Source: Octopus sinensis (lineage: Eukaryota). Taken from it: 64,000 nt of DNA. The notes under the pieces are model-generated. The model ran no database searches and was not told the DNA's origin. It saw only the letters and a list, made by a program, of their open reading frames with translations. The stretch lies in the NCBI RefSeq assembly GCF_006345805.1, contig NC_042998.1, forward strand, positions 149,854,001 through 149,918,000, in the 5' to 3' direction. Of this stretch, positions 2,590 through 43,601 are shown piece after piece (the first letter of the stretch is position 1; the number at the start of each line of letters is the position of its first letter). A program made the position numbers and the translations under genes.

Positions 2590-2622
2590 TTTCTGATGAA
2601 GTGCTTTGCTCGAAATGTCAAA
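2590..2622 (+). ncRNA. Degenerate minimal type I hammerhead ribozyme motif in a PLE-type terminal fragment
   Basis: ttt-CTGATGAA-gtgc ttt gctc-GAAA-t-GTC-aaa; one mismatch each in stem II and stem III. Confidence 0.55.
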
Positions 2623-2730
2623 CTCCTCCTTTTCACCGAACGTCGAGATAATGCATTCCTTCTGCATATCCTCTTATTATTCGCTAATTTTATTCATTTA
2701 TTTGAATTATTTGTTTGAATTGACTATATA

Positions 2731-4009
2731 CGAGGGGCGTTCAATAAGTAATGCCCCTGACCCACTTCCCATAGCAGTAGAGTAACGAAACTTGGCACAG
2801 TTATTAGTCTTTTTCTACATAGAAACCACCCAGAGTTACGCATTTCTCCCATCGTTTGATGCAGCTCTGGAGACCGTTTTTGTAGAAGAACCCAGCTTGG
2901 TCCTCCAACCTCAACGTGACTTCAGAAATCAAGGCTGCATCATCTGGGAAACGCTTTCCTTTCAAAAACAACTTCATGGCTGGGAAGAGGTGAAAATCAG
3001 AGGGTGCAAGGTCAGGAAAGTAGGGGGGATGGGGAGGAGTTCATAGCCATACGCCTGTGCCTCTGATCTGGCGACCATCGAGTTGTGGACCGGAGCGTTG
3101 TCCTGCAGGAGGAGGATGCCTTTGCTGATCTTGCCCCGCCTCTTGATTTTGATAGCTTCTCTTAATTTCCTCAAAGGTGAAGCATAATAGGCTCCTGCAA
3201 TTGTGGTACCCTTTGCCAGGAAATCTGTCATCACTACTCCGTCCTGGTCCCAGAAGGCTGTGAGCATGACCTTGCCAGCGGAGGGCTGCACCCTTGCCTT
3301 CTTTGGAGGGGGTGAGTCACGGTGCTTCCACTGCATTGACTGGGCTTTGGTCTCTGGATCATAGTGATGGACCCAGGTTTCATCCTGTGTAATCAGTCTT
3401 TTGAAAAATGTTGACTCATCTTCTTGGCACATCTCCAAATTCACCCTCGAGCACTCGAAACGTTCTTGCTTCTGGAAAGGCGTGAACAACCTGGGAATCC
3501 ATCTGGCAGACACCTTTTGCATATGCAAATGGTCATGAATGATAGTTTCCACAGACTCGGTACTAATCTTGACCTCATGGGCTATTTGGCGAATAATTAT
3601 GCGTCGATCTTCGAAAATGGCAGCCTCAATTTGACGGACAGATGCCTCATCAATGGCAACCAGATCTGGGAGCTGTTTCCACAGTTCCGACCATGATTGA
3701 ATTCACGATGCCAGCGTTTTACAAGATCATATAATGGGGCATCATCACCATAAGTTACTTTCATTTCATCAAAAGTCTCCCGTGGTGTGCGTCCTTTCAA
3801 ATACAAAAACCGGATCACTGCTCGACACTCAACAGGCTCCATTTCACACTTGACTCGGTTCAAACACCTGTAAATCAGAAACCACAGTTAATTCAGAGCT
3901 GTAATTTGCTACTTACAATATAGAAATATAAATAATTGCACATGCAAAATTTCAGCTAGATCAAACAACTGCAAGTGGGTCAGAGGCATTACTTATTGAA
4001 CGTCCCTCG
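2731..4009 (-). mobile_element. Full-length mariner DNA transposon (~1.28 kb)
   Basis: 37-bp terminal inverted repeats cgagg(g/g)(g/a)cgttcaataagtaatgcc(c/t)ctgacccactt with two mismatches; TA dinucleotide on both flanks (2729-2730, 4010-4011). Confidence 0.97.
2804..3842 (-). pseudogene. Mariner DD34D-type transposase, frameshifted
   Basis: N-terminal HTH MEPVECRAVIRFLYLKG; ARWIPRL (WVPHEL-like); ITQDETWVH; LLQDNAPVH; PPYFPDLAPSDFHLF in a shifted frame; ends GGFYVEKD-stop. Confidence 0.93.
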
Positions 4010-4163
4010 TAGATACATACATACATATATACATATATATATATATATATATTATATATATATATATATATATATATATATATATATATAATATATATAT
4101 ATATATATATATATATATATGTATATATATATAACAAATGAAAGACAGAAGAATATATTACTA

Positions 4164-4264
4164 ATCACAATAATTGTTTCGACACATCTAGCATCGACCC
4201 TCTTGTGGGACACACAAAAGCTAGTTCAGGAGAATCCGTGGTGCTGACGTATCTCGTCGGATGA
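4164..4264 (-). ncRNA. Degenerate hammerhead-like motif with long stem II in a PLE-type terminus
   Basis: Minus strand tcat-CCGACGA-gatacgtc...gatgtgtc-GAAA-caattat-t-gtga; close to (TA)n. Confidence 0.4.
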
Positions 4265-42060: not shown

Positions 42061-42071
42061 ATATATATATA

Positions 42072-43375
42072 TAACACCCTGATGGGAGCCTTAACTCCCA
42101 AATTTTAGTCATTTTTTTATGATCCAAAACTAGGTCAAAAGTACTGAATGGATCTTTATGAAATTTGGAAATTATATTCTATGCATAAGAGCCATAACCC
42201 CCATGACAATTCATATATTTTTGCTGTTGATGAAATTTTAACCATAGATATTAGACACAAATGAAGTAATATTTATAAAATTTCATCTTTTTACAAGTTA
42301 GAAAGACCCCTACATGGGGACTTAACACCGTCAATTTTGTCATTTTATCTAAACAAAAACGAATACAGTTGTGCTCTTGGAAGCTGTAGGGTTACCCAAG
42401 TATAAAAGTTGAGCATTATTTCTAATTCAATGGTACAACAGTGTAACAATTTGTTTTGACATACACTTACATTGTGATTTCTGCAATGTGCTGCATAAAT
42501 TGTGAAGTAAATGAGAGGCATATTTGGCTCCACTGATTCAGTTGCAAACTGTTGGGTAAAGTTATTTGATTGCACACCTCCTTTCACTCTTTTTATTATC
42601 ACTCGGTCACACATAGCCCCCAGAGGGTAACATTGATTTCAAGGCCTTCCCAGATGAATGACTGGTTATTCAAAGACATTTATAGATTGTAATTTTATTC
42701 TGTCCAGTTACGTATCAGTATAGTGGTCATTTGCAAACTCCAGAGGTCTTCTTAGCCCTCACGTCACACAATTGTTAGTGTTGATTTCAGTTGGGTCACA
42801 CCCTTCCAATTGCTATAGATTCGTAATGCATCTTACGGCTGTGCCTGTCACCTGGATAGTGAGGAATTCTACATTGGGATTGGTAACGACTAGGATAGGG
42901 TAACTGACTGCTTATTGTGATCATTCGTCTTTTGGTTTCCTGTAGCTTTGCTTTCTTTTACAAACCCAGTGAACATATATTTCCTATTTCAAAGAAATTC
43001 AAACAATAGATATAAGACCCAAGTTAAAAAGATTCTCAACAATTCAACTTCTCTGGTTGACATTAAGATACCCACCCCAATAGAGGCCTTAACTCTCGCA
43101 TTTTAGAGCTCCATGACCTTCATTTTTCAGGAGCAAAATCTTTTTAACAGGTTCAATAAGACTGCAATTTTGGAATATGCGCATAAAAACCAGTAGTATT
43201 GGATAAATGTGGCACGATTACAATATTTTAGGGTGTGTAAAGAGGGAAATAACCCTGATCTGCAATTTTGATGAAATTCGAAACATAGATATTCCAGTTC
43301 ATTACAGAAAAATATAACATAAAAGTCTAATTCTTCAATTGAATGTAACCTAGCAACAGCGGGTATCTCTACTAG
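42072..43375 (+). mobile_element. Helitron-like 3' portion
   Basis: Ends with the decayed hairpin acctagcaacagcgggt followed by CTAG|T at 43372-43376; left boundary uncertain. Confidence 0.45.
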
Positions 43376-43563
43376 TATATATATATATATATATATATAT
43401 ATATATATATATATATATATATTATAATATATATATATATATTATATATATATATATATATATATATATAACGGGAAGCTTTATGAAAATAGACAAAAGA
43501 CGGCAGGTGGAAAACACGAGCAATTGTATTAGTATGGCGCTCAGGAAATATAAATAAAACAAG

Positions 43564-43601
43564 TCTTTAACGTTTCGAGCCTACGCTCTTCAACAGAAAG
43601 A
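43564..43601 (-). ncRNA. Minimal type I hammerhead ribozyme, variant core CUGUUGAA
   Basis: Minus strand tcttt-CTGTTGAA-gagc gtag gctc-GAAAC-GTT-aaaga; stems I and II perfect, palindromic (A)ACGT(T) stem III. Confidence 0.75.

What the first reader, a model, noticed from the sequence alone, without database searches (positions are those of the whole stretch)
2590..43601. Dense field of hammerhead-like motifs in short non-coding, microsatellite-associated elements (candidate cephalopod retrozyme system)
Seen: eight hammerhead folds at 2590(+), 4164(-), 8545(-), 8822(+), 22320(-), 26207(+), 30266(+) and 43564(-), in apparently unrelated sequence contexts. Several have a self-complementary stem III (ACCGGT, ACAGCTGT, ACGATCGT, AACGTT) and most lie near (TA)n. 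Only two are attached to a coding PLE. Established: Penelope-like elements carry minimal hammerheads thought to cleave as dimers, and animal retrozymes are non-autonomous hammerhead repeats that yield circular RNA. Inference: several families of non-autonomous ribozyme-bearing units are mobilised by the resident PLEs and may make up an under-annotated small or circular RNA system.
Basis: partly seen in the sequence, partly recalled or inferred. Interest (0 to 1): 0.75.

Follow-up and report, generated by a model that had tools for sequence, protein, structure and literature searches.

The report
Penelope stubs and old retrozymes, mixed
The eight ribozyme-like motifs are real but mostly decayed copies of seven common repeats: four are tail-ends of protein-coding Penelope-type jumping genes, and three are protein-free head-to-tail units that were likely copied by the same enzymes, possibly from RNA circles, at a density that is ordinary for this genome.

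Summary
All eight motifs exist. They belong to seven high-copy families whose consensus is a type I hammerhead with a self-complementary stem III; only 2 of 8 window copies are still intact. Four families (4164, 26207, 30266, 43564) are 5'-truncated 3' ends of coding Penelope-like elements: longer copies carry GIY-YIG and/or RT sequence upstream. Three families (2590; 8545+8822, one two-armed insertion; 22320) have no ORF: their 3' tail runs in register back into their own upstream sequence (units about 510-550, 470 and 361 nt, up to 2.3 laps). That is non-LTR retrozyme architecture, with a Penelope footprint: (TA)n targets, inverted arms, two fixed 3' ends. The 2590 unit is homologous to the Neptune pLTR at 43564. 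The field is not dense: intact hammerheads occur at 2.2 per 64 kb in 600 kb of unselected genome against 2 here, roughly 90,000 genome-wide. Self-cleavage and circular RNA are untested, and these units are old. Both kinds of element are published, and this scan has already reported younger retrozyme families elsewhere in this genome.

The parts
2576..2730 (+). Family A: 5'-truncated copy of an ORF-less hammerhead unit (about 510-550 nt where read through); core 2593-2599, predicted cut after 2619; stems II and III damaged; homologous to the family H pLTR
2729..4011 (-). Mariner-type transposon (39-nt terminal inverted repeats, transposase fragment 2974-3702) inserted in the TA tract that families A and B share tail to tail; not part of the ribozyme system
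4134..4441 (-). Family B: 3' end (pLTR) of a coding PLE with a Hydra-like GIY-YIG; hammerhead 4265-4164 with an ~80-nt insert in helix II; G16.2 mutated in this copy
8380..8726 (-). Family C, left arm (ends at fixed site 1); hammerhead 8589-8549, stem III palindrome broken
8749..9160 (+). Family C, right arm (ends at fixed site 2); hammerhead 8825-8865, passes the descriptor; ORF-less ~470-nt head-to-tail unit
22092..22379 (-). Family D main arm: ORF-less 361-nt head-to-tail unit; hammerhead 22356-22320, stem I broken in this copy
22393..22435 (+). Family D short inverted arm ending in (TA)n
26146..26312 (+). Family E: 3' end of a coding PLE (thumb/linker and Hydra-like GIY-YIG about 1.1 kb upstream in long copies); hammerhead 26211-26250, core mutated in this copy
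27731..30485 (+). Family F: 5'-truncated PLE with thumb/linker remnants, CxCx5C motif and GIY-YIG (to 29196), long 3' UTR, hammerhead 30272-30349 (first stem I pair broken)
43470..47410 (-). Family H: near full-length Neptune-type PLE (RT 46576-44750, C-x4-C-x2-C linker and endonuclease to about 44600, repeat-rich 3' UTR, pLTR 43735-43470); hammerhead 43596-43569 with U at core position 6, passes the relaxed-core descriptor

Best explanation
The eight motifs are genomic leftovers of seven repeat families, four being truncated 3' ends of coding Penelope-like elements and three being ORF-less head-to-tail units, all likely pasted into (TA)n tracts by Penelope-type RT/GIY-YIG proteins. Shown: family membership, ORFs upstream in long copies of B, E, F and H, in-register read-through without an ORF in A, C and D, fixed 3' ends at microsatellite, ragged 5' ends, and inverted two-armed insertions. 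Inferred: the enzyme nicks both strands of a TA tract and starts reverse transcription at one of two internal sites on the RNA, usually a different site for each strand. On coding RNAs it mostly stops within a few hundred bases and leaves a pLTR stub with its hammerhead. On the ORF-less RNAs it runs past the unit junction and past the predicted cut site, so the template was an uncut multimer or a circle with identical laps. The hammerheads are predicted to cut only as dimers through the palindromic stem III, which would release unit-length RNA for ligation. A, C and D are old and decaying, so most copies are probably inert now.
For: Coding parents: RT or EN upstream in 10 of 20 H loci and 2 of 25 F loci, each count including the window copy; GIY-YIG C-terminus in 2 of 25 B loci; GIY-YIG in 0 of 25 first E loci but 10 of 30 long ones, at least 4 independent, with thumb/linker ORF further up. 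ORF-less units: D has the same 22-nt junction in 8 of 25 first-set loci, and all 30 loci cut out with a junction query cross it. C reads through to 2.3 laps. Main arms longer than one unit: 27 of 39 C and 30 of 49 D insertions overall, 9 of 19 and 6 of 24 in the first sets, which were not selected for the junction. The tail of A leads back to A's own upstream sequence in 3 of 30 tail loci, and in a fourth through a 1.3-kb CA-rich tract to a diverged A-like copy. Two 3' end sites; the two arms end at different sites in 12 of 17 C and 12 of 20 D pairs, as expected from the two RT start sites reported in PMC11167929. Laps within one insertion share non-consensus letters about 2.3 times more often than laps from different insertions, with no fixed lap1/lap2 differences. 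C and D consensus units fold far better than shuffles (z -4.8 to -9.1); the A, E and H ends do not, F gives z -3.9.
Against: No RNA evidence either way for cutting or circles. Parent searches used only 3-6 PLE proteins from this genome and mostly 1.5-kb flanks, so a rare coding parent of C or D is not excluded. Stray PLE hits lie near single C, D and A loci (L218, L250, L368, L399) without joining them. A rests on only 3-4 read-through loci with a variable linker. The second C and D sets were chosen with junction-spanning queries, which inflates read-through counts. 5' ends do not pile up at the predicted cut site, and PMC11167929 found cleavage unnecessary for insertion in vitro, so the ribozyme may play no part in mobility. 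The mobilising enzyme for C and D is not identified: they show no sequence link to B, E, F or H.
Confidence: 0.8

Rival explanations
1. All seven families are simply 5'-truncated 3' ends of autonomous PLEs; the repeats in A, C and D come from tandemly duplicated 3' UTRs or from pLTR-on-pLTR reinsertion of coding masters.
For: True for B, E, F and H. E needed a second, upstream-directed search before its ORF appeared. PMC4209133 reports most minimal hammerheads as single motifs from truncated PLEs. A is homologous to a coding pLTR.
Against: Identical in-register junctions at many independent loci; up to 2.3 laps with nothing coding upstream; tails lead back to the unit itself and not to an ORF start; no fixed lap differences; no joined ORF in 55 C, 55 D and 85 A locus stretches, some overlapping.
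Confidence: 0.12
2. The window is a hotspot of a currently active cephalopod small or circular RNA system in which all the motifs are working ribozymes.
For: Consensus hammerheads are intact in 7 of 7 families; C and D fold like retrozyme circles.
Against: Window density equals the genome background; 6 of 8 window copies are damaged; A, C and D copies are about 82-93% identical to consensus and rarely intact; four families are stubs of coding elements.
Confidence: 0.06
3. C and D multimers arose after insertion by local DNA duplication (unequal crossover or slippage), as satellite birth from single pLTR stubs.
For: This model is proposed for vertebrate retrozymes in bioRxiv 10.64898/2026.07.22.740005; laps within a locus share some variants.
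Against: Independent local duplications would not give the same junction at dozens of dispersed loci; laps within a locus are almost as divergent (15-18%) as laps between loci (16-20%), so they date from the insertion itself; most copies hold a non-integer 1.1-1.8 units.
Confidence: 0.02

Closest known systems
[quoted passage not shown]
   Same: Type I fold, palindromic region III, extra nucleotide between 9 and 10.1 (6 of 7 consensuses), G10.1-C11.1 pair (6 of 7), thousands of dispersed single motifs in many families, few attached to full elements.
   Different: Core variants here are C4 (A, B, E) and U6 (H); B and F have long helix II inserts; the genome-wide number (about 90,000 extrapolated) is well above the 2,000-9,000 given there.
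Metazoan non-LTR retrozymes (Cervera and De la Pena 2020, PMC7229834, part 2, passages and discussion read; Li et al. 2026, bioRxiv 10.64898/2026.07.22.740005, parts 1-3 of 5 read)
   Same: C, D and probably A: ORF-less head-to-tail units of 360-550 nt, GC under 50%, type I hammerhead, strongly self-paired (C, D), co-occurring with PLEs and, for A, homologous to a pLTR.
   Different: Sampled copies are dispersed, 0.5-2.3 units long and often two-armed rather than long arrays; they are old, with no locus holding two intact family hammerheads; expression and circularity are not shown.
Neptune and Hydra clades of EN+ PLEs (Craig et al. 2021, PMC8557442; passages and the Hydra section read)
   Same: H has a CX2-5CxxC linker and C-terminal endonuclease (Neptune); F has the CxCX5C linker of Hydra, and B and E endonucleases align with it; (TA)n targeting, inverted 5'-truncated arms and tails as described.
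   Different: No phylogeny was run; tails here reach 55-190 nt against the 30-40 bp described.
Poseidon PAc mechanism (Frangieh et al. 2024, PMC11167929; parts 1-2 of 4 read)
   Same: Two internal RT start sites that define the tail, both DNA strands cut and extended, AT-rich target.
   Different: Here the same footprint is seen on ORF-less units, with each arm tending to use a different site; this is inferred from genomic copies, not assayed.

Membership tests
PLE minimal hammerhead | Type I topology with conserved core in the family consensus | tested here: met
   7 of 7 consensuses pass a descriptor that allows C4 and U6; strictly canonical CUGANGA in C, D and F only
PLE minimal hammerhead | Palindromic positions 15.2-16.2 and loop 3 | tested here: met
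   7 of 7 form an intermolecular duplex, -1.7 to -13.2 kcal/mol
PLE minimal hammerhead | Located in the 3' terminal repeat downstream of an RT/GIY-YIG ORF | tested here: met
   Met for B, E, F and H; not met for A, C and D
PLE minimal hammerhead | Low self-cleavage, as dimers | not testable with these tools
   Needs in vitro transcription
Non-LTR retrozyme (families C, D) | Head-to-tail units of a few hundred nt with a type I hammerhead | tested here: met
   Units of about 470 and 361 nt with fixed junctions, up to 2.3 laps
Non-LTR retrozyme (families C, D) | No ORF, GC under 50% | tested here: met
   No joined PLE ORF; GC 0.39 and 0.46
Non-LTR retrozyme (families C, D) | Highly self-paired predicted circle | tested here: met
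   z -4.8 (C) and -7.0 (D) as circles against 40 dinucleotide shuffles
Non-LTR retrozyme (families C, D) | [quoted passage not shown] 2026) | tested here: not met
   0 of 60 junction-set loci and 0 of 3 first-set D dimers have two descriptor-passing family hammerheads; only a sample of the copies was examined
Non-LTR retrozyme (families C, D) | Expressed as circular RNA and self-cleaving | not testable with these tools
   Only contigs were available; no run on record as RNA
Non-LTR retrozyme (family A) | ORF-less head-to-tail unit | tested here: inconclusive
   Read-through in 3-4 of 30 tail loci with a variable linker, no ORF after the tail; folding of the 3' end not above shuffles
Neptune PLE (family H) | RT plus C-terminal endonuclease with CX2-5CxxC linker | tested here: met
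   RVT_1 hit; C-x4-C-x2-C in the 45026-44601 frame
Hydra PLE (families B, E, F) | CxCX5C linker before a C-terminal GIY-YIG | tested here: inconclusive
   Motif intact in F; degenerate or not recovered in B and E, whose endonucleases align at about 30% identity
Neptune / Hydra PLE | Placement in the RT phylogeny | not tested
   No reference PLE set on hand and no RT core recovered for B, E or F

The most novel reading that the evidence does not exclude
This genome carries on the order of 10^5 hammerheads in many families, and its ORF-less families record how a borrowed Penelope enzyme copies an RNA circle: priming at two fixed internal sites, one per DNA strand, and lapping through the ribozyme cut site. 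The A/H pair would name a specific donor lineage (a Neptune pLTR that lost its ORF and closed on itself), giving a testable parent-parasite pair for the open question of who mobilises animal retrozymes.
Probability: 0.35. Interest if true: 0.65.

Novelty: new member of a known kind. Interest (0 to 1): 0.35.

Why it matters
Which enzyme moves animal retrozymes, and whether it uses a circle, is still only proposed (PMC7229834 discussion; bioRxiv 10.64898/2026.07.22.740005). The mapped 3' sites, the two-arm pattern and the A/H homology give concrete substrates for an in vitro priming test. The extrapolated ribozyme load is large, and a recent Octopus vulgaris repeat annotation does not mention ribozymes in its main text. 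But this window is an ordinary sample, its ORF-less families are old, and younger examples in the same genome are better test cases.

Tried and rejected
Rfam: no match at gathering thresholds; the E-value run listed microsatellite-driven miRNA models in the 150 of 384 rows shown. A first strict canonical descriptor found only 3 good hits, one unrelated at 61610; it was replaced after the consensuses were built. Expression: no RNA holder listed; three runs guessed to be RNA hold fragments of family C as contigs only, which says nothing on level, ends or circularity. DNA contigs tile parts of the C locus with 0-1 differences, but one run may be the source sample. The idea that 5' ends stop at the cut site was rejected: starts are spread round the unit, and 6 of 39 C and 7 of 49 D arms cross two cut sites. 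The comparison of 8 against 1.28 per 64 kb for these same seven families was rejected as circular. A search with one Hydra-type endonuclease returned 150 places from 17,043 candidates, but their 3' flanks were not examined, so it does not bear on parents. The B row of the folding control was truncated to 94 nt by my trimming and is not used. The join of one E tail to a Neptune-like ORF start (L200) was not accepted as a control (single case). No ninth hammerhead was found with 16 further family queries. Lunse et al. 2016 (dimer cleavage) was not held and is known only from its citation in PMC6765202 (passages read). Literature searches: hammerhead+Penelope+octopus and self-cleaving ribozyme+hammerhead+octopus listed no cephalopod ribozyme paper; no listed paper held 'A6U'; one search was uninformative (15 of 4,262 listed, none with 'retrozyme'). 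Supplements of the cited papers were not read and may list cephalopod or U6 examples.

Full report
Setting. The window lies in a 2.72-Gb animal genome and is a field of microsatellites, SINE-like repeats, LINE fragments, a mariner and two PLE remnants. I label the families A (2590), B (4164), C (8545 and 8822), D (22320), E (26207), F (30266) and H (43564).

Observation. All eight motifs are present. Each query retrieved at least 40 scored matches in the genome; first-look candidates were 378 (A), 1,602 (B), 817 (C), 693 (D), 3,138 (E), 3,801 (F) and 125 (H), which are lower bounds and not copy numbers. Majority consensuses of 20-25 copies give a type I hammerhead in every family, with unrelated helix sequences around the same core: CUGAGGA (C, D), CUGAUGA (F), CCGAUGA (A, E), CCGACGA (B) and CUGUUGA (H). 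Region III is self-complementary in 7 of 7 and can hairpin on its own only in D, the signature of dimer-dependent PLE hammerheads in PMC4209133. A descriptor tuned to admit these cores passes 7 of 7 consensuses, 2 of 8 window copies, and 0.15 sites per shuffled window. Rfam detects none.

Density. The same descriptor finds 21 sites in 599,700 nt from 60 stretches taken at fixed offsets on 20 chromosomes, or 2.24 per 64 kb. The window's 2 intact motifs are therefore background. Only about 5 of the 21 belong to or resemble the window's families, so the genome holds many more families. Simple scaling gives about 90,000 intact motifs, with a wide margin from so small a sample. Degenerate copies could not be counted in the unselected stretches.

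Four families are stubs of coding PLEs. H has RT or endonuclease upstream in 10 of 20 loci and F has GIY-YIG in 2 of 25, each including the window copy. B reaches a GIY-YIG C-terminus about 350 nt upstream in 2 of 25 loci. E showed nothing in the first 25 loci, but a search with its longest upstream extension gave GIY-YIG in 10 of 30; 7 of these share flanks and count once, leaving at least 4 independent insertions, and 10-kb stretches show a thumb/linker frame further up. All four have fixed 3' ends at (TA)n and ragged 5' ends. H has the Neptune linker motif. F has the CxCX5C motif that PMC8557442 gives for Hydra, and the B and E endonucleases align with it. No tree was built.

Three families are ORF-less. 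In D the 3' end is joined to the unit's own start by the same 22-nt linker in 8 of 25 first-set loci and in all 30 loci cut out with a junction query; the unit is 361 nt. In C the sequence downstream of the hammerhead runs into the sequence upstream of it; the unit is about 470 nt, and copies reach 2.3 laps with three hammerhead positions. After removing duplicates, 27 of 39 C and 30 of 49 D main arms exceed one unit, and 9 of 19 and 6 of 24 in the first sets, which were not selected for the junction. These searches used 3-6 PLE proteins from this genome. For A, the 150-nt tail leads through a pyrimidine-rich linker back to A's own upstream sequence in 3 of 30 tail loci (about 510-550 nt, one deleted to about 380), and in a fourth through a 1.3-kb CA-rich tract to a diverged A-like copy; most of the others stop at the tail end. 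A is homologous to the H pLTR over about 140 nt (z=10.3; the other 20 family pairs score 2.4 or less). C and D consensus units fold into long stems closed at the hammerhead, z -4.8 and -7.0 as circles.

Insertion footprint. C and D ends fall at two sites: about 170 and 320 nt after the predicted cut for C, about 175 and 231 for D. Earlier notes on other families in this genome suggested that the two arms of inverted insertions use different sites. I tested this, and it holds in 12 of 17 C pairs and 12 of 20 D pairs, with 3 same-site pairs in each and the rest unclassified. The window's 8545/8822 pair is such an insertion. PMC11167929 shows for a Poseidon protein that both strands are cut and extended and that two internal start sites define the tail, which fits. 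5' starts are spread round the unit and do not stop at the cut site. Two laps of one insertion differ by 15% (C) and 18% (D), close to the 16% and 20% between insertions; they share non-consensus letters 2.3 times more often than laps of different insertions and show no fixed lap1/lap2 differences (26 of 41 and 25 of 49 arms had enough overlap, and one C locus was counted by both arms). So laps were identical when inserted and have decayed since. A circle or a homogeneous multimer both fit; these data do not separate them. By the calibration quoted in PMC13282606 (distance 0.09 at about 25 million years), the burst would be of that order, as a rough guide only.

Activity now. Intact motifs remain in 17 of 20 H, 14 of 25 F, 12 of 25 B and 11 of 25 E copies, but in only 4 of 25 C, 2 of 25 D and 1 of 25 A copies, and no sampled locus has two intact family hammerheads in tandem. 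Sequencing runs gave contigs only and cannot address expression or circles.

Comparison and novelty. Dispersed minimal hammerheads from truncated PLEs are described in PMC4209133. Tandem ORF-less retrozymes, including mussel, and the proposal that PLEs mobilise them are in PMC7229834. Their descent from pLTRs is argued in bioRxiv 10.64898/2026.07.22.740005. My searches listed no paper on cephalopod ribozymes, and an Octopus vulgaris repeat annotation does not use the words ribozyme or hammerhead in its main text; supplements were not read. This scan has already reported at least eight younger retrozyme families or arrays elsewhere in this genome (unchecked notes), though sequence look-ups with C and D found nothing. 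C and D work like non-LTR retrozymes and meet the structural definition; they fail the 'active' criterion in the copies sampled, and circular RNA is untested. A is probable but inconclusive. B, E, F and H are ordinary PLE ends.

Verdict. Observation partly confirmed, interpretation partly supported. New members of known kinds; interest 0.35. The boldest reading not excluded, that the ORF-less families record Penelope enzymes lapping RNA circles and that A descends from the Neptune lineage of H, has probability about 0.35 and would merit 0.65.

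Noticed in passing
window 43569-43596 (-), family H; relative in L339: The core reads CUGUUGA (U in place of A6) in all 17 of 20 H copies that pass the descriptor, and a related family has CUGUCGA. PMC3088659 (passages read) reports A6C with low activity; the papers listed did not hold A6U.
   Followed up: partly
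L304-L363 (60 fixed-offset 10-kb stretches): 21 intact hammerheads, most from families absent from the window; scaled to 2.72 Gb this is about 95,000 before and about 90,000 after subtracting the shuffle rate.
   Followed up: partly
window 2729-4011: A mariner transposon has split the TA tract in which families A and B had inserted tail to tail.
   Followed up: partly
L200 (oriented about 2340-3400): An E pLTR plus its 190-nt tail is joined directly to the start of a Neptune-like ORF about 70% identical to the H N-terminus: a possible template switch between PLE clades, single case.
   Followed up: partly
L173-L180, L185 (L264): About eleven near-identical loci with a truncated two-armed E/F PLE insertion share both flanks; one of them lies beside an ORF that looks like alpha-tubulin (recalled from the sequence, not searched). 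Probably a segmental duplication or gene array.
   Followed up: no
G000: One Hydra-type endonuclease family gives 17,043 first-look candidates, with many copies of equal score and open frames up to 634 aa, often as inverted pairs 1-3 kb apart: a young, very abundant PLE.
   Followed up: no
L205 and L259: A C copy abuts an inverted E 3' UTR in one locus, and C and D copies sit together in another; shared (TA)n targets or template switching.
   Followed up: no
window 31308-32305, 36070-37046, 35368-35600: Recent local duplications (457-nt, about 590-nt and 127-nt periods) of repeat-rich sequence.
   Followed up: no
window 32915-34210, 37164-41826, 55477-57951: Fragments of several LINE-type elements (gag-like zinc-knuckle ORF, endonuclease-RT with PHD finger, zf-RVT C-termini).
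   Followed up: no
window 1941-2474, 4421-4608, 21985-22092, 25973-26157, 52053-52451, 53504-53890: A very common SINE-like repeat in two halves around (TA)n flanks three of the hammerhead elements directly.
   Followed up: no
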